Sequence record: HM114315.1
DNA length: 64,000 nt
Source: Acinetobacter phage 133
Strand: one strand, 5' to 3'
Shown here: piece by piece, positions 5,974 to 29,267 of the stretch
Layout: every line of letters starts with the position of its first letter
Numbering within the stretch: the stretch's first letter is position 1
The notes under the pieces: generated by a model
Told to the model about the DNA's origin: nothing
Database searches by the model: none
What the model saw: the letters and a program-made list of their open reading frames with translations, nothing else
Translations under genes and position numbers: made by a program

Positions 5974-7152
5974 TTAGAAGAAATCAAACATATCTGCCAA
6001 TGATGCACGATGTTCATAATGAATATCACATGCTGTACATAAAGCTTGCAATGGTTTAATGAATGATTTGGTGAATAGAGCAGGGTAATCAATTGCATCA
6101 ATTACGTCTTGTCGAATTTCCCGGGGCAATTCTGTTCCAGACGGCCATGCGATCGATTCAGAGTCAAACATATTGCCAGGTTGAAGAGGGAGTATCATTA
6201 CTTTTTCACCTTCACGAATTCGGACCATGCCTGGGAATCCGTCCGCGATTCGGTGATAGGCTAATACTGCTTTGATGTGGCCTGGGCATCCTTTAATTGG
6301 CAACCCCTTCGAGTCACTATATTTGGCAATATTATTGGCAGACGAAACTGATGCAATAGTTTTATAGTTCAATTGACGATACTCTTTTTCGTACTTCAGG
6401 AAGTATTCGTGCAATGAACTTTCACCTTCAATAAGCATCAGTCGAATTGACTCTTTTAATGCTTTTTGTACAGATTTTGGTGTGCTTGATTTCTGAGTTT
6501 CAAGGCCCATGATCTTAAGTTTAGGCTCAACAAAACGAACCCCTTCCATATCCCACACACAAAGAGCGTATCGTTTTTTCGCGGTCCAGAATCCACCCAA
6601 CCCGTGAGAACCGATTGGAGGACAAGCAATAGCTTCTCGGTCCATGAACATTAAATGTTCTCGGTTATTCATGTACTCGCATAGCTCACGATATCCTTTG
6701 TCAATGACTGGTTCCATGTTGTTCTTGCCAAATTTGTCCAGGAAGTCAACCAGCTTAGTTGTGGTGTCAAATTTGTCCATACCGAGTTTATTGATCAATA
6801 GTTCAACGTTTACATAGATAGAATCCGTATCACAATAGAAAACATACTCAAAGTTTGTGGTACCACATAATTGATTGAGATACTCATTTACTTTCCGGGC
6901 AATCCACTGAATAGCTACACGACCAAAGGTTGTAATGGCCGTTGCATTGCGCAGATCATACATACGGAAGTGAATGTTGCCCAGTGCACCGTATAATGAA
7001 TTTAATAAAATTTTTCGGTTCTGCTGGTTTGTGTCGCATTTTATTTCGTATCCATTACATTCAGCCAAGATGCGTTTAAGCTCTTCGTCCGTACATGTTT
7101 CAAGATACGCAATCTCGTCTTCATTAAATTTAATGCCGTAGTTTAATTCCAT
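5974..7152 (-). CDS. 43B: DNA polymerase gp43, C-terminal segment (43B; palm/thumb with YCDTDS motif)
   Basis: Carries the PolB motif C (YCDTDSIYV) and matches the T4 gp43 C-terminal region. Start taken at MELNYGIKF, which has a GGAGA Shine-Dalgarno 5 nt upstream. The ORF track starts at 7179 with a non-ATG codon. Confidence 0.85.
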   Translation of the reverse strand: MELNYGIKFNEDEIAYLETCTDEELKRILAECNGYEIKCDTNQQNRKILLNSLYGALGNIHFRMYDLRNATAITTFGRVAIQWIARKVNEYLNQLCGTTNFEYVFYCDTDSIYVNVELLINKLGMDKFDTTTKLVDFLDKFGKNNMEPVIDKGYRELCEYMNNREHLMFMDREAIACPPIGSHGLGGFWTAKKRYALCVWDMEGVRFVEPKLKIMGLETQKSSTPKSVQKALKESIRLMLIEGESSLHEYFLKYEKEYRQLNYKTIASVSSANNIAKYSDSKGLPIKGCPGHIKAVLAYHRIADGFPGMVRIREGEKVMILPLQPGNMFDSESIAWPSGTELPREIRQDVIDAIDYPALFTKSFIKPLQALCTACDIHYEHRASLADMFDFF

Positions 7153-7170
7153 TATGTCTCCAAAAATAAA

Positions 7171-7190
7171 AAGGACCACTAAGGTCCTTA
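7171..7190 (-). terminator. intrinsic terminator / operator-like hairpin just upstream of the 43B Shine-Dalgarno
   Basis: AAGGACC-nnnn-GGTCCTT hairpin followed on the minus strand by UUUUUAUUUUU, then GGAGA and the 43B ATG. Confidence 0.55.
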
Positions 7191-7206
7191 ATTATATCAA
7201 ATATGA

Positions 7207-7512
7207 CTAAAGCATACGGGCCGGCATATAAGGTGTATTTTTAGCACCTTTTACAGGAACCATAATGCGATCTTCAGACAACATTGTTCTGCACTTTTTA
7301 CACATTGTAATAGTTTCAACTTCAAACATTCGAGACGTTTGAGCATTGCGTTTACTCGCTTGAGTAAAATATGCCTTATGGTTAAATCCCGTGTTTTCAT
7401 ATTTGCCAGTGTATACCCCACGAGTCATTGGATCATGCTCGCAACGAAGTTTAAGTACAATTAATAAACGTTGAATCATTTTCTGTAAAAATTTCATAAT
7501 AAATTCCTTCAT
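7207..7512 (-). CDS. hypothetical small protein with CxxH...CxxC (possible zinc ribbon)
   Basis: 101 aa with RCEHD...CKKC. Last gene of the insertion that splits gene 43. Confidence 0.3.
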   Translation of the reverse strand: MKEFIMKFLQKMIQRLLIVLKLRCEHDPMTRGVYTGKYENTGFNHKAYFTQASKRNAQTSRMFEVETITMCKKCRTMLSEDRIMVPVKGAKNTPYMPARML

Positions 7513-7583: not shown

Positions 7584-8321
7584 TCATAATTCCAATTTCC
7601 CGGCAAATTGGGCAATAGGTAGCCACTCTGTTTCTGATTCTTCATCATCTGCCCATGCAAATAATAATTGATCTACAGGACGCGGTGGTTGAGGGCTATG
7701 ACGGATTACATTGACCCATAGTTGCATAGATCCAGACGGCCCTTGCACAATTTCACTAATTGGATACCCTTGAAATAATTCTAAACCTTTATCATCCGTA
7801 ATATGGCGCACCATCACGCCAATTAAGGGATGAATAGGTTTCAAAGGCTTTCCCTCGGGTAAATCATCTAATTGGTACACAATGATGTCCAAATTCGGCG
7901 TTACTTCATTGATGATTTGTTCAATTACAGCCCAGTCACCACCTGCAATTCCAGCACCAATTTTTGGGATACCTACTTCAGGTCGACCTACTATAATGGA
8001 TGGTAAAATGAGGTCTAATTTTGTGAATAATGCGCGAATTGCGGTGTACAGATATTTAGGATCTGCTCGGCCTGGATTAAATTGTGTGTACCCGTTAACA
8101 ATTTTTCCATATGGTGTTTCGGCAAGCGTATATCCACCCCGTTTATCTCGACCATATTGGGTCAGCTTGTCAGCATCATACGCAACTGGAAATTGCTTTG
8201 CAATAGCCGCAGCGATACCAGCGCCCATAGTATGGAAGCAATTGCATCCATGCACAATAGCATCAAATTTACGCTCGCGGAAAGCGTCAAGTAAATCACC
8301 TTTTACGTATTGAGTAATCAT
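7584..8321 (-). CDS. macro-domain (ADP-ribose binding/hydrolase-like) protein with C-terminal extension
   Basis: VHGCNCFHTMGAGIAAAI resembles the macro N-terminal motif (NAAN..GGGV..AI). PKIGAGIAGGDW resembles the second glycine-rich macro motif. The ORF track extends to 8348; the start here is the internal Met MITQYV. Confidence 0.5.
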   Translation of the reverse strand: MITQYVKGDLLDAFRERKFDAIVHGCNCFHTMGAGIAAAIAKQFPVAYDADKLTQYGRDKRGGYTLAETPYGKIVNGYTQFNPGRADPKYLYTAIRALFTKLDLILPSIIVGRPEVGIPKIGAGIAGGDWAVIEQIINEVTPNLDIIVYQLDDLPEGKPLKPIHPLIGVMVRHITDDKGLELFQGYPISEIVQGPSGSMQLWVNVIRHSPQPPRPVDQLLFAWADDEESETEWLPIAQFAGKLEL

Positions 8322-8623
8322 TATTTCTCCTCCGAATAAATGATGCATTGCATGAAAGTATGATAGTCCAAATACACGGTGTCGAGTCCGTCATCACAGT
8401 CAGCCCAAGCAAAATTCAAATAACAATCATCAAATACTTTGCCATCGTTGGTGTAAATTTTCAATCGAGGTGACATATTAGTATCAAAATATGAACGGAC
8501 CTCAACAACATGGCCTGTGATTTCAGGATGAGTTTTATGTTGGTATATTACACCAATTAACGGGTGTAATATAGTAGAGGGCCAGTTAGTCGTACCCTCT
8601 AAAATAGGTAAATGTGGAATCAT
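8321..8623 (-). CDS. hypothetical protein
   Basis: 100-aa ORF inside the gene-43 insertion. Confidence 0.35.
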   Translation of the reverse strand: MIPHLPILEGTTNWPSTILHPLIGVIYQHKTHPEITGHVVEVRSYFDTNMSPRLKIYTNDGKVFDDCYLNFAWADCDDGLDTVYLDYHTFMQCIIYSEEK

Positions 8624-9791: not shown

Positions 9792-10073
9792 TTATTTCTC
9801 CACAGAAGTGTCAACAGGACGAACAGAATCAACATAAACCAGGTTTGCAGTTAGTGCTTTCAGTTCAAGGTCTAAGTTAAAAATAGTAGTGTCATTAATT
9901 GGTTCACCGATGTAACGGTGTAAGGCCGATTCGATATTTGCAACAACTTGTTTATTTGCAAGACGGTCAGCATGGTGAATATCCATTTTAATTGGGCATC
10001 CAGCTTGTACTGTAATTTTTACCATGCCGTAATCAAGAACAATTGGTTGTGTAGCAGATTGGATCAATTTCAT
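9792..10073 (-). CDS. hypothetical protein, first gene of the insertion after 43A
   Basis: 93 aa; its start overlaps the 43A stop. Confidence 0.4.
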   Translation of the reverse strand: MKLIQSATQPIVLDYGMVKITVQAGCPIKMDIHHADRLANKQVVANIESALHRYIGEPINDTTIFNLDLELKALTANLVYVDSVRPVDTSVEK

Positions 10074-11602
10074 TTTTTACGTCTCGCAAGTATTGATTTA
10101 ATTACCTCGGCATTTTGTTCTGCCGTGATCATTTTTTTCTTCCATTCTTTACGCTGTACAAACATTTTAGTGGTTTCAATAGGAATGATTCCCTCTAAAA
10201 CTTTATCGTACATCATACCGTTTGGAGCACAACTAAATTCGGAGCTAGGTCTTGGAGCAGTCTTATCAATATACTGTTCCTGCGTACCGGGGCTAAACAT
10301 ACCACGAATTGTTTCGGGGCTAATATTGACCTGGCGAATAATGCTCGGGTACAAACTTGTTAAGTCAAAGCTCATCACATATTTTTGAAGACTTGGTGGA
10401 ATCTCTTTAACAAACGCACCAGGGAACTTCTGTTTAATGTGGCTTTGTGACTCAGGCAATACTACCTTGGTTTCTTTAAGCGAATTGAATAAAATCGCAT
10501 CCCATGTTTTTACCGGCGAAAGTACCGATCCAATGTTGATCTTAGCGTAATACGCCAAAGCAAGAGACAAGTCAATGAATCCGCGCTTTTTATCAATCAT
10601 CTGTACACAGTACACATCAATGATGTTATAGCTGATGTAACGTTGGTGGTTGGTCTCACGGAGTTTGTTAATAGGACCATCATACTCTAATTTTGAGACA
10701 TCTGTCTCCGCTTCAGAAATATAATCCAATGAATATGACGGTTGAGTCGTAAAGCCGAACTTTTTGTACAAGTCCATATAGTCAAGCACGTTAATTCCAG
10801 CAATGGTGAATAACTCGGCTTCATTATCATACTTATCCCGCATGACTTTTGAAGTTACACGACCAAAAGGTGACATACGCTTGACGAATGTCTGACCCAG
10901 CACATTCTTGATGCGGTTCATCACATATGGAATATCGAACTTGTCACAGTTCCAACCGGTCAACACCGCAGGAGGTTTCTGCTCAAATAAGTTGATATAC
11001 TCAAGCAATAATTCTCGTTCATTGTCAAATGGCATATAGACAACACGATCTAAAATGTGTTGAGGTACCATGTCCCCGCCTTCAGCTTCGGCCTTAGCCG
11101 CTATTTTCGCGCACCATTGATCCACAGTGGCCGATGTACTATGAGTTAAGTCAAATACATAGTAAGCATCATCAATTGAGTCATAATGTGTTATGGCATC
11201 AATCTCGTACACTGCAAGCATTGGTTCAGGGAAGTCAATACCGGTTACCTCGATGTCAAAATAAACAGTGCGGATTTTGGACTTATCGAATTCAACGTCG
11301 TCCTTGTAGATATCGCTGATATACGCCAGACGAAAGTCGTCCATGCCCATAATTTCAACGATGCCTTTTGTCTCGCGCATCCACTGTCGACAAGATGAAA
11401 TCCCATCAAACTTACGAGGTTTAGCATACTTTCCATAGATGTCTTTGTATTCAGACTCATCTTGGGTATGTACGAACATTGTTGGACCATAGTTAACCGA
11501 TCGAATTTGATCCTGTCCATCCACATCAATGTAACGCTCTAAAATTTCACCCCGATTGATGTCAACGTTAATATAAAATTCAGGTTTCATCAATTTCTCC
11601 AA
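10070..11602 (-). CDS. 43A: DNA polymerase gp43, N-terminal segment (43A; 3'-5' exonuclease plus N-terminal palm)
   Basis: 510 aa. Exo I motif FDIEVTG. Matches the T4 gp43 N-terminal half. Stops before the motif-C region, which is encoded separately. Confidence 0.85.
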   Translation of the reverse strand: MEKLMKPEFYINVDINRGEILERYIDVDGQDQIRSVNYGPTMFVHTQDESEYKDIYGKYAKPRKFDGISSCRQWMRETKGIVEIMGMDDFRLAYISDIYKDDVEFDKSKIRTVYFDIEVTGIDFPEPMLAVYEIDAITHYDSIDDAYYVFDLTHSTSATVDQWCAKIAAKAEAEGGDMVPQHILDRVVYMPFDNERELLLEYINLFEQKPPAVLTGWNCDKFDIPYVMNRIKNVLGQTFVKRMSPFGRVTSKVMRDKYDNEAELFTIAGINVLDYMDLYKKFGFTTQPSYSLDYISEAETDVSKLEYDGPINKLRETNHQRYISYNIIDVYCVQMIDKKRGFIDLSLALAYYAKINIGSVLSPVKTWDAILFNSLKETKVVLPESQSHIKQKFPGAFVKEIPPSLQKYVMSFDLTSLYPSIIRQVNISPETIRGMFSPGTQEQYIDKTAPRPSSEFSCAPNGMMYDKVLEGIIPIETTKMFVQRKEWKKKMITAEQNAEVIKSILARRKK

Positions 11603-27455: not shown

Positions 27456-27727
27456 TTATTATCCTTTTCCTTGACTTGAATGTTTTTACGTTTCACATAT
27501 TCCTTGGCTGTGACTTGGCCCCATTCCGTGCAGTCATTTTTACAACTAGTTTCGGTCCATTTGCTTTTAACAAAAGCGTAGAATCGTTCAGATTCGTCCT
27601 TGCTGGGATTTTCGAATTGGGAATATACAGTCATTGCACCCTCAAAATAGGTGTTAAACTTATCGGGGTTCTTAGCCGAACAGGCCAGACTGACAGTTAT
27701 AGTCAGCATCATTATTACCCACTTCAT
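27452..27727 (-). CDS. putative lipoprotein
   Basis: Signal peptide with lipobox-like SLAC-S (MKWVIMMLTITVSLACSAK). Confidence 0.4.
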   Translation of the reverse strand: MKWVIMMLTITVSLACSAKNPDKFNTYFEGAMTVYSQFENPSKDESERFYAFVKSKWTETSCKNDCTEWGQVTAKEYVKRKNIQVKEKDNK

Positions 27728-28764: not shown

Positions 28765-29267
28765 TTTTCAACCTTCAATATGTTATTAGTTTTAAGGTAT
28801 TGGGCCTTCTTTAAAACACTACGAGAGTATCCTTGACCTTTGTGAATTTGCCATCCGGCATTATATGAAGCAATGGCTTTGCTTATATTGCCATTATGTA
28901 CCTTGAGCCAATACTCAAGTTCTACATTTGCCCAATGTGCTGAGGTATTAAAGCTGCGTAAATCCCCAGCAATTTGAGCATTGGTCTTAGTGACACCGTT
29001 TTGTTTCATGCGACTTTTAACGGTAGGAATATAATTCTGGAATGGCCCTACAGCGTGACCATTCTTTCCGCAGTTAATACCTGCGCTAGATTCCTGCCAG
29101 AGTATAGCAGCCATGATATATCCACGATCTAAATTGCCAGATCGGGACTGCGGGACTTTCTTCCCGTATTGATACGCCTTATGCATATTTTGGATTTGAG
29201 TGTCACTGAAATTATATGCCCATACGGGCGAGGCTACCAAGGCCAATATTAGTAATAGATATTTCAT
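28761..29267 (-). CDS. secreted SLT-domain-like lytic transglycosylase (predicted)
   Basis: Signal peptide MKYLLLILALVASPVWA. The ES...GPFQ signature (WQESSAGINCGKNGHAVGPFQ) resembles the soluble lytic transglycosylase catalytic motif. Confidence 0.4.
   Translation of the reverse strand: MKYLLLILALVASPVWAYNFSDTQIQNMHKAYQYGKKVPQSRSGNLDRGYIMAAILWQESSAGINCGKNGHAVGPFQNYIPTVKSRMKQNGVTKTNAQIAGDLRSFNTSAHWANVELEYWLKVHNGNISKAIASYNAGWQIHKGQGYSRSVLKKAQYLKTNNILKVEK

What the first reader, a model, noticed from the sequence alone, without database searches (positions are those of the whole stretch)
7584..8348. Macro-domain (ADP-ribose binding/hydrolase-like) protein encoded inside the gene-43 insertion
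Both glycine-rich macro signatures (VHGCNCFHTMGAGIAAAI and PKIGAGIAGGDW) are present, followed by a ~90-aa C-terminal extension. Phage macro domains are candidates for reversing ADP-ribosylation. Possible targets include host defences such as DarT-type DNA ADP-ribosylation, or the phage's own Alt/Mod-type RNAP modification. The location inside an essential replication gene is unusual.
Basis: partly seen in the sequence, partly recalled or inferred. Interest (0 to 1): 0.7.

Follow-up and report, generated by a model that had tools for sequence, protein, structure and literature searches.

The report
Phage anti-DarT macrodomain with extra domain
This gene is the Acinetobacter phage 133 copy of the T4 tk.4/AdfM macrodomain, an enzyme family that most likely strips ADP-ribose off phage DNA to defeat the bacterial DarTG2 defence; it is ordinary except for an unusual location and a small fused extra domain of unknown role.

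Summary
The minus-strand gene is real, but its likely start is the ATG at 8321, not 8348, which gives 245 aa (7584-8321). Residues 1-150 form a confidently modelled macro domain of the TARG1/DarG/SCO6735 class. They are 40% identical to T4 Tk.4 (E 1e-34). The window is Acinetobacter phage 133, and UniProt already names this protein tk.4 (Q6J2P1).

A 2025 preprint reports that T4 tk.4 is the anti-DarTG2 factor AdfM. SCO6735, the best PDB match to the family's sequence profile, removes ADP-ribose from DarT-modified thymidine and needs Asn27 and Gln85. Both residues are invariant here (N27, Q80). The Alt/Mod idea is not.

Two features are less ordinary:
- The gene sits in the variable cassette between the split polymerase cistrons 43A and 43B, not at the T4 tk-vs locus.
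- Its roughly 85-aa C-terminal domain belongs to a tiny acidic family I call "FAWAD". I found this family only inside gene-43 inserts of phage 133, Ac42 and related metagenomic phages.

The C-terminal domain is under purifying selection and is predicted to be a KOW/SH3-like barrel. Its function is unknown. Overall this is a known kind with a minor new architecture.

The parts
7584..8321 (-). tk.4/adfM-like gene of Acinetobacter phage 133: 245 codons plus stop. It is a macro domain fused to a FAWAD domain.
   Evidence: ORF and translation. The same 245-aa gene is called on contigs L004-L006. UniProt Q6J2P1 'tk.4 [Acinetobacter phage 133]' is 245 aa. phrog_335 E 7e-65.
7872..8321 (-). Macro domain, residues 1-150, of the ALC1-like/TARG1-DarG-SCO6735 class.
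   Evidence: AF2 block-mean pLDDT is 82-98 over residues 1-150. Foldseek to Poa1p, TARG1, DarG and BT1257 gives E 1e-10 to 1e-7. The profile against PDB gives SCO6735 E 4e-16. Identity to T4 Tk.4 is 40%. dN/dS is 0.11 against L003.
8241..8243 (-). Asn27 codon, invariant in the family. It aligns with SCO6735 Asn27.
   Evidence: Invariant column in the 55-sequence alignment. HMMER alignment to 5e3b. SCO6735 N27S nearly abolishes dT-ADPr hydrolysis (PMC9411070). Codon checked.
8082..8084 (-). Gln80 codon, invariant in the family. It occupies the position of SCO6735 Gln85, TARG1 Lys84 and DarG Lys80.
   Evidence: alignments to 5e3b, 2afc, 4j5r. SCO6735 Q85A is inactive. Codon checked.
8202..8255 (-). 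First glycine-rich signature, VHGCNCFHTMGAGIAAAI (residues 23-40).
7932..7967 (-). Second glycine-rich signature, PKIGAGIAGGDW (residues 119-130). The 'AGG' matches SCO6735 and BT1257, whereas TARG1 has D125-R-L here.
7836..7871 (-). Interdomain linker, residues 151-162 (LDDLPEGKPLKP).
   Evidence: Low pLDDT in the model. A related contig, L009, carries a GAG->TAG nonsense change exactly here.
7587..7835 (-). C-terminal 'FAWAD' domain, residues 163-245 (IHPLIGV ... LLFAWADDEESETEWL). It is acidic (pI 4.6) and is predicted to be a KOW/SH3-like small beta-barrel.
8321..8623 (-). Upstream stand-alone FAWAD paralog (Acj133p082, 100 aa). It is translationally coupled to the macro gene through a TAATG overlap.
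   Evidence: P0122 is named Acj133p082; Q6J2P2.
8327..8333 (-). Shine-Dalgarno GGAGGAG, 5 nt upstream of the ATG at 8321.
10070..11602 (-). Gene 43A: the N-terminal part of the family-B DNA polymerase (exonuclease domain plus the start of the polymerase domain).
   Evidence: Pfam DNA_pol_B_exo1 E 8e-19 and DNA_pol_B E 7e-15.
5974..7152 (-). Gene 43B: the C-terminal part of the DNA polymerase. This is the 392-aa call; a GTG at 7179 would give 401 aa.
   Evidence: Pfam DNA_pol_B E 1e-11. Gene calls of 392 or 401 aa.

Best explanation
The gene encodes phage 133's ortholog of T4 Tk.4 (AdfM). This is a macrodomain ADP-ribosyl glycohydrolase of the SCO6735-like branch of the TARG1/DarG class.

The most likely job is counter-defence. 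When the host DarT2 toxin ADP-ribosylates thymidines in single-stranded phage DNA and stalls replication, the enzyme hydrolyses the thymidine-ADP-ribose bond so that replication can continue. Asn27 and Gln80 would position the distal ribose, and the two Gly-rich loops would hold the diphosphate.

In the phage 133 lineage a tk.4-type gene landed in the variable cassette between polymerase cistrons 43A and 43B. There it became fused in frame to a resident small acidic beta-barrel ('FAWAD') gene. The gene sits in a same-strand run of closely spaced or overlapping ORFs between 43A and 43B. The fused domain probably mediates a protein contact (replisome, ssDNA-bound proteins or the toxin), but that role is unknown.

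Shown here:
- the fold;
- family membership;
- conservation of the key residues;
- the fusion;
- purifying selection on both domains.

Inferred by homology, not tested on this protein: DNA de-ADP-ribosylation and the anti-DarTG2 role.

Speculative: any role for the C-terminal domain.
For: Fold and class:
- AF2 block-mean pLDDT is 82-98 for residues 1-150.
- Foldseek top hits are Poa1p, TARG1, BT1257 and DarG.
- The profile against PDB sequences gives SCO6735 4e-16, BT1257 5e-15, TARG1 3e-11 and DarG 8e-10.
- The PADLOC DarG model covers residues 4-149 (E 4e-8).

Orthology:
- 40% identity to T4 Tk.4 over its whole length, E 1e-34.
- phrog_335 E 7e-65.
- About 2,750 phage records carry homologs, annotated tk.4, macro or Poa1p-like and lying next to vs in T-even phages.
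- UniProt names this protein tk.4.

Function of relatives:
- T4 tk.4 was the single HIDEN-SEQ hit on DarTG2, and a clean knockout is DarTG2-sensitive (preprint).
- PhiKZ AdfM removes DarT2 ADP-ribose from DNA (PMC13309987).
- SCO6735 hydrolyses dT-ADPr DNA, with N27 and Q85 essential (PMC9411070).
- N27 and Q80 are invariant in 55 family members.
- DarTG is reported in Acinetobacter baumannii defence hotspots (PMC11723918).

The C-terminal domain is real:
- It is homologous to the upstream ORF and to Ac42p091, P0128 and P0133.
- dN/dS is 0.27-0.29.
Against: - No biochemical or genetic data exist for this protein or for any Acinetobacter phage homolog.
- Identity to T4 Tk.4 is only 40%.
- The T4 evidence is a preprint with a genetic phenotype but no enzymology.
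- SCO6735 also acts on protein substrates, so DNA specificity cannot be read from the sequence.
- SCO6735's DNA-binding Lys34 corresponds to Ala34 here (numbering applied to the alignment).
- Whether hosts of phage 133 carry DarT2 is unknown.
- The C-terminal domain is acidic, so it is unlikely to bind DNA directly.
- A natural variant (L009) has a stop codon in the linker, which suggests the fusion may be dispensable.
Confidence: 0.6

Rival explanations
1. The enzyme processes small soluble ADP-ribose derivatives, not DNA adducts. Candidates are ADP-ribose-1''-phosphate (Poa1p-like 'phosphatase'), O-acetyl-ADP-ribose, or NAD-derived immune signals or toxic metabolites.
For: Poa1p is among the top structural and sequence neighbours. 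Database names for relatives are 'phosphatase' and 'O-acetyl-ADP-ribose deacetylase'. The Iyer/Aravind survey argues that most phage Macro domains target low-molecular-weight ADPr derivatives (PMC9503650).
Against: Those names are homology-transfer labels. The only phenotype reported for a family member (T4 tk.4) is DarTG2 sensitivity. The best PDB match to the family's sequence profile, SCO6735, shares the N27/Q85 site and acts on thymidine-ADPr DNA.
Confidence: 0.15
2. The enzyme removes ADP-ribose from proteins. It would either tune the phage's own Alt/ModA/ModB-type modification of RNA polymerase and other host proteins, or reverse a host protein-ADP-ribosylating toxin.
For: TARG1 and SCO6735 hydrolyse glutamate-linked protein ADP-ribosylation. 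T4-like phages encode Alt/Mod ARTs, and Alt homologs are noted in Acinetobacter phages.
Against: Alt/Mod modifications are arginine-linked, and macrodomains of this class are not known to cleave that linkage (my own knowledge). The TARG1 Lys84/Asp125 dyad used for protein substrates is absent here (Q80, A126). No ART gene lies next to this one.
Confidence: 0.1
3. The enzyme reverses RNA ADP-ribosylation, for example by CmdT-like or RhsP2-like toxins or at RNA phosphate ends.
For: RNA ADP-ribosylating defences exist (PMC11618068, listed). SCO6735's activity on phosphate-end ADPr-RNA is stated inconsistently within PMC11833690.
Against: SCO6735 was inactive on 2'-OH RNA ADPr, and one passage reports it inactive on 5'-phosphate ADPr. 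From my own recollection of the CmdTAC paper, that system defends against T-even phages even though T4 carries tk.4; I did not read that paper's text here.
Confidence: 0.07
4. The protein is a non-catalytic ADP-ribose reader, or a stoichiometric toxin binder. It would bind ADP-ribosylated targets or the DarT toxin, possibly through the acidic C-terminal domain.
For: Catalytically dead SCO6735 still inhibits DarT by binding it. DarG2 and ICP1 AdfB neutralise DarT by binding, using an acidic ssDNA-mimicking surface (PMC11481870). The C-terminal domain is acidic, with pI 4.6.
Against: The residues needed for SCO6735 catalysis are invariant. The C-terminal domain has no detectable similarity to the DarG C-terminal region or to any PDB sequence. 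FAWAD paralogs occur in phages whose gene-43 insert has no macro gene.
Confidence: 0.08

Closest known systems
T4 Tk.4 = AdfM (anti-DarT factor macrodomain), preprint 10.1101/2025.11.20.689424
   Same: Full-length homolog of the macro domain: 40% identity, E 1e-34. Same PHROG family (phrog_335). Same HGCNCFHTMG, YTQ and P+IGAGI motifs. Also encoded by a T4-type phage.
   Different: T4 Tk.4 is a 155-aa single domain at the tk-vs locus. This protein is 245 aa with a fused FAWAD domain. It lies between 43A and 43B, and the rI/vs.1 neighbourhood of the window has no tk.4.
Streptomyces coelicolor SCO6735 (PDB 5E3B) and Bacteroides BT1257 (2AFC/2FG1)
   Same: Best PDB sequence-profile matches. They share Asn27, the Gln at the TARG1-Lys84 position, and the 'IG.G.AGG.W' second loop. 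SCO6735 removes ADP-ribose from DarT-modified thymidine.
   Different: They are bacterial stand-alone proteins. SCO6735's DNA-contacting Lys34 is Ala34 here. About 21-25% identity in the structural alignments.
DarG2 antitoxin macrodomain (PDB 5M31/5M3E/5M3I) and chimallivirus AdfM (PhiKZ gp104, PMC13309987)
   Same: Same macro class. Their established function is removal of DarT2 ADP-ribose from DNA. DarG2 is likewise a two-domain protein.
   Different: DarG2 and PhiKZ AdfM use a catalytic Lys (K80/K78), where this protein has Gln80. The DarG C-terminal DarT-binding domain is not detectable here. There is no adjacent darT gene.
Split gene 43 (43A/43B) of Acinetobacter phages Ac42 and ZZ1 and Aeromonas phages 25/44RR
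   Same: The polymerase is encoded as two cistrons with intervening DNA. Ac42's insert also carries a FAWAD gene, Ac42p091.
   Different: Insert content differs. Ac42, L007 and L010 carry a phrog_624/Pyr_excise-like gene and no macro. Only the phage 133 lineage has the macro gene there.

Membership tests
Macro domain superfamily (Pfam PF01661) | Three-layer alpha/beta/alpha macro fold. | tested here: met
   AF2 block-mean pLDDT is 82-98 for residues 1-150. Foldseek probability is 1.0, with TM (target-normalised) 0.72-0.81 to Poa1p, TARG1 and DarG.
Macro domain superfamily (Pfam PF01661) | Two Gly-rich ADP-ribose phosphate-binding loops. | tested here: met
   GAGIA (33-37) and PKIGAGIAGG (119-128) align with the equivalent loops of SCO6735, BT1257 and TARG1.
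Macro domain superfamily (Pfam PF01661) | Score above the Pfam gathering threshold. | tested here: not met
   20 bits against a cut-off of 22. The 67%-identical P0002 and most homologs carry a precomputed PF01661 hit.
ALC1-like class: TARG1 type | Catalytic Lys84/Asp125 dyad. | tested here: not met
   Gln80 and Ala126 occupy the aligned positions (alignment to 4j5r).
ALC1-like class: SCO6735/BT1257 type | Asn27 plus Gln85 active-site pair, and the 'AGG' second loop. | tested here: met
   N27, Q80, A126, G127 and G128 are invariant in 55 homologs. They align to 5e3b and 2afc. Their functional role is described in PMC9411070.
T4 Tk.4 / AdfM family | Full-length sequence homology to T4 Tk.4. | tested here: met
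   BLASTP 40% identity, E 1e-34, residues 1-148. phrog_335 E 7e-65.
T4 Tk.4 / AdfM family | Single-domain protein of about 150 aa at the tk-vs locus. | tested here: not met
   The protein is 245 aa with an extra domain. It is located between 43A and 43B. The rI and vs.1 homologs at 27.5-29.3 kb of the window have no tk.4 next to them.
T4 Tk.4 / AdfM family | Protects the phage from DarTG2 and removes thymidine-linked ADP-ribose from DNA. | not testable with these tools
   This needs plaque assays on DarTG2 hosts and in vitro hydrolysis. It has been shown only for relatives.
DarG2 antitoxin (NCBIfam NF048014, PADLOC PDLC02990) | Macro domain with catalytic Lys80, a C-terminal DarT-binding domain, and an adjacent darT gene. 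| tested here: not met
   The NCBIfam score is 30.5 bits against a cut-off of 250, covering model positions 2-44 only. The PADLOC DarG model is matched only at positions 3-143 of 329. The Lys position is Gln80. No insert ORF matched any toxin or DarT family in the Pfam, PHROG or NCBIfam scans.
KOW / SH3-like small beta-barrel (C-terminal domain) | Five-stranded small barrel fold. | tested here: inconclusive
KOW / SH3-like small beta-barrel (C-terminal domain) | Sequence match to a KOW or other curated domain model. | tested here: not met
   No Pfam hit at E<=10. No NCBIfam hit for the extension or its paralog and no PADLOC hit for the extension or the stand-alone FAWAD proteins. The stand-alone FAWAD proteins have no PHROG hit. 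No PDB sequence hit at E<=10.

The most novel reading that the evidence does not exclude
The fused acidic FAWAD barrel is a functional second arm of the counter-defence. It would either dock the glycohydrolase onto the split-polymerase replisome or ssDNA-bound proteins, or bind and block DarT2 as an ssDNA mimic. Either way the result would be an independently evolved, DarG-like bipartite 'erase and sequester' anti-toxin. The FAWAD family as a whole, always found in gene-43 inserts and often directly downstream of DNA-lesion enzymes, would then be an undescribed adaptor that delivers DNA-repair enzymes to the phage replication fork.
Probability: 0.12. Interest if true: 0.6.

Novelty: new variant of a known kind. 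Interest (0 to 1): 0.3.

Why it matters
If the homology-based call is right, phage 133 and its relatives carry a ready-made anti-DarTG2 factor. This is relevant to host range and to the use of Acinetobacter T4-like phages in therapy, because DarTG occurs in A. baumannii defence hotspots.

The macro domain itself adds little, since the family is abundant and its role was recently assigned in T4 and PhiKZ. The modest added value has three parts:
- It is a natural example of an AdfM-type enzyme with Gln rather than Lys chemistry, fused to a second domain.
- It shows that the cassette between 43A and 43B is a landing pad for accessory DNA-damage-reversal genes and homing endonucleases.
- It defines a tiny uncharacterised protein family (FAWAD) tied to that cassette.

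Tried and rejected
- **Curated domain for the C-terminal extension.** I found none. Pfam at E<=10 gave nothing. NCBIfam gave nothing for the extension or its paralog, and PADLOC gave nothing for the extension or the stand-alone FAWAD proteins. The stand-alone FAWAD proteins have no PHROG hit. There was no PDB sequence hit. BFVD returned only phage 133's own proteins.
- **Exhaustive profile search of 1.84 billion cluster representatives.** Only two true clusters came back. Five further hits were repeat proteins, which I dismissed as spurious after reading three of them.
- **tblastn against 50,697 phage genomes.** The 133 C-terminal domain found nothing, and Ac42p091 found only Ac42.
- **Second macro gene.** There is none in the 64-kb window, including the rI/vs.1 neighbourhood. 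There is none in Ac42 positions 1-90 kb. The rest of phage 133 and of Ac42 was not examined.
- **DNA repeat rather than protein motif.** I considered that the shared FAWAD motif might reflect a DNA-level repeat. I rejected this because the paralogs differ at synonymous positions (read) and dN/dS is below 0.3.
- **The 8348 start.** I rejected it (see the observation check).
- **Stand-alone 85-aa ORF (P0121).** It looked like a stand-alone FAWAD gene downstream of a 150-aa macro. It turned out to be the fused gene with a single nonsense change in the linker.

Full report
**What is there**

On the minus strand an ORF runs 7584..8348. The ATG at 8348 lies inside the preceding ORF. The ATG at 8319-8321 is preceded by GGAGGAG (8327-8333) and overlaps the upstream stop codon as TAATG. 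Gene calls on three metagenomic contigs that carry the same protein use this 245-aa start, and UniProt Q6J2P1 is a 245-aa entry. I therefore take the gene as 7584-8321.

About 95 residues follow the macro domain.

The flanking genes are the two halves of a family-B DNA polymerase: 43A at 10070-11602 and 43B at 5974-7152 (Pfam). About 2.9 kb lies between them. It holds roughly eight same-strand ORFs, most closely spaced or overlapping.

**Identity of the window**

The upstream 100-aa ORF is Acj133p082 of Acinetobacter phage 133. The macro protein is UniProt Q6J2P1, 'Uncharacterized protein tk.4 [Acinetobacter phage 133]'. That genome is absent from the searchable phage collection. Its nearest relative there is Ac42, at about 72% DNA identity over conserved genes.

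**The macro domain**

- PHROG phrog_335 matches at E 7e-65. Pfam Macro is just below threshold on this single sequence (20 vs 22 bits).
- A 55-sequence alignment of homologs, used as a profile against PDB sequences, gives SCO6735 (5E3B) 4e-16, BT1257 5e-15, Poa1p 2e-12, TARG1 3e-11 and DarG 8e-10 to 2e-8.
- The AlphaFold2 model has block-mean pLDDT of 82-98 for residues 1-150. Foldseek returns the same set of structures at probability 1.0.

This is therefore a macro domain of the ALC1-like (TARG1/DarG/SCO6735/Poa1p) class, not the MacroD class.

Residue-level reading of the HMMER alignments:
- Asn27 aligns with SCO6735 Asn27.
- Gln80 aligns with SCO6735 Gln85, which is TARG1 Lys84 and DarG Lys80.
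- TARG1 Asp125 corresponds to Ala126.
- The second loop reads IGAGIAGG, as in SCO6735 and BT1257.

N27, Q80, A126, G127 and G128 are invariant across the 55 homologs. In SCO6735, Q85A abolishes and N27S nearly abolishes hydrolysis of thymidine-linked ADP-ribose on DNA. SCO6735 also rescues cells from DarT (PMC9411070).

**Relation to T4 and known function**

Homologs of the macro domain occur in about 2,750 phage records. In T-even phages they are annotated tk.4, 'phosphatase', 'macro domain' or 'Poa1p-like', directly upstream of vs. T4 Tk.4 is 40% identical over its whole length (E 1e-34) and keeps the HGCNCFHTMG, YTQ and PRIGAGI motifs.

A November 2025 preprint (10.1101/2025.11.20.689424) reports that tk.4 was the single significant T4 transposon-library hit on a DarTG2 host. 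It also reports that a clean knockout sensitises T4 to DarTG2, and it names the gene adfM. A 2026 paper gives the same name to the DarG2-like PhiKZ gp104, which removes DarT2-made ADP-ribose from DNA (PMC13309987). Earlier work had shown that T4 lacking AdfA and AdfN stays DarTG2-resistant, which pointed to a further factor (PMC11825919). DarTG is reported in A. baumannii defence hotspots (PMC11723918).

Nothing has been tested on this protein.

**The C-terminal extension**

Residues 163-245 are homologous to the upstream stand-alone ORF (shared HPLIGV...H...FAWAD...T..L). The family is tiny:
- An exhaustive HMMER scan of 1.84 billion cluster representatives found two true clusters.
- A profile search of 5.8 billion proteins found 11.
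- BLAST against 50,697 phage genomes found only Ac42.

Every member I could place lies inside a 43A-43B insert:
- phage 133 and close variants (L003-L006, L009);
- Ac42p091;
- three paralogs in metagenomic contig L007;
- one paralog in each of L010 and L011.

Fusion to a macro domain occurs only in the 133 lineage (P0001, P0002).

L007 shares the order phrog_36432-like ORF, FAWAD, FAWAD, Cys-rich 95-101-aa ORF, 43B (my reading of the translations). It has no macro gene. The simplest history is therefore insertion of a tk.4-type gene upstream of a resident FAWAD gene, followed by in-frame fusion.

Comparing the window with L003 gives dN/dS of 0.11 for the macro part and 0.27-0.29 for the extension, so both are under purifying selection. 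One contig (L009) carries GAG->TAG in the linker, which recreates a 150-aa macro protein. I cannot tell whether this is a real variant or an assembly error.

In Ac42 and L010 the FAWAD gene directly follows, and overlaps, a phrog_624 gene with a weak pyrimidine-dimer-glycosylase (Pyr_excise) match. The L007 insert carries the same gene, one ORF upstream of its FAWAD genes. The family thus recurs next to DNA-lesion enzymes. This suggests an adaptor role but does not show one.

**Location**

Split gene 43 is already described for Ac42 (annotated 43A/43B), ZZ1 (PMC4177764) and Aeromonas phages 25/44RR (PMC2988022). The insert is a variable cassette. One 133-like contig (L005) has an extra HNH homing endonuclease just before 43B, and L010 has a GIY-YIG one.

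The macro gene sits at different loci in different lineages:
- tk-vs in T4;
- upstream of the gene annotated 'antisigma factor' in the dda region in AB-Navy71;
- the gene-43 insert here.

The window contains rI and vs.1 homologs at 27.5-29.3 kb but no tk.4 beside them. It has no second macro gene anywhere in its 64 kb. Ac42 has none in its first 90 kb. The location is therefore lineage-specific, but it is an accessory gene in a hyperplastic region, not a gene embedded in polymerase coding sequence. A link to polymerase biology remains an idea only. It rests on DarT2 blocking replication, and on SECphi18 escaping DarTG2 through polymerase mutations (as cited).

**Verdict**

The macro domain is a new member of a now-characterised family and was already annotated tk.4. 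The only unusual features are the fusion to a lineage-restricted acidic barrel domain and the position between 43A and 43B. I rate it a new variant of a known kind, with low-to-moderate interest.

Noticed in passing
window 7161-7214 (-): A T4 middle-promoter-like site (MotA-box TGCTTTA, 11 nt, TATAAT) sits at the 3' end of the 101-aa ORF. It is followed by a GC-rich hairpin (7189-7171), a T-run, and GGAG before the 43B ATG at 7152. 43B may therefore have its own promoter and a structured leader, comparable to the intercistronic untranslated sequence described for phage 44RR.
   Followed up: partly
L005 2003-3037 (-): A phage-133-like contig carries an extra 344-aa HNH homing endonuclease (phrog_655 E 9e-28) on the opposite strand, between the 96-aa ORF and 43B. 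It is absent from the window. L010 10030-10842 has a GIY-YIG SegE-like endonuclease in its gene-43 insert. The insert is a landing site for mobile endonucleases.
   Followed up: partly
L002 8772-9242 (-), L007 6790-7257 (+), L010 8507-9004 (+): Other gene-43 inserts carry a phrog_624 protein with a weak Pyr_excise (T4 DenV-like pyrimidine dimer glycosylase) match. In Ac42 and L010 it directly precedes and overlaps a FAWAD gene. Phage 133 has no such gene in its insert and instead has the macro gene directly upstream of (fused to) a FAWAD sequence.
   Followed up: partly
L009 880-900 (+): A metagenomic variant of the macro-FAWAD gene has a single GAG->TAG change in the interdomain linker. This gives a 150-aa macro protein and a separately called 85-aa ORF with a TTG start. 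It could be a real polymorphism or an assembly error.
   Followed up: partly
L007 5824-6228, 7561-8004, 8001-8441 (+): Three FAWAD paralogs lie in one gene-43 insert. Two are about 146 aa and have a second C-terminal beta-rich half. Two of them share the exact string AWADDEESETEW with the phage 133 fusion protein despite low identity elsewhere, which hints at recombination or strong constraint on that segment.
   Followed up: no
window 7207-7512 (-) and L007 8428-8715 (+): A conserved basic (pI 10) protein of about 95-101 aa, with cysteines including a CKKC motif, lies immediately upstream of 43B in both phages. It has no family match. It could be a small zinc-binding protein linked to 43B expression or polymerase assembly.
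   Followed up: no
window 27470-27721 and 28770-29255 (-): Homologs of T4 rI and vs.1 are present, but tblastn at E<=1e-3 finds no tk or vs homolog anywhere in the window and no tk.4 copy next to rI/vs.1. The T4 tk-vs block is reorganised in phage 133.
   Followed up: partly
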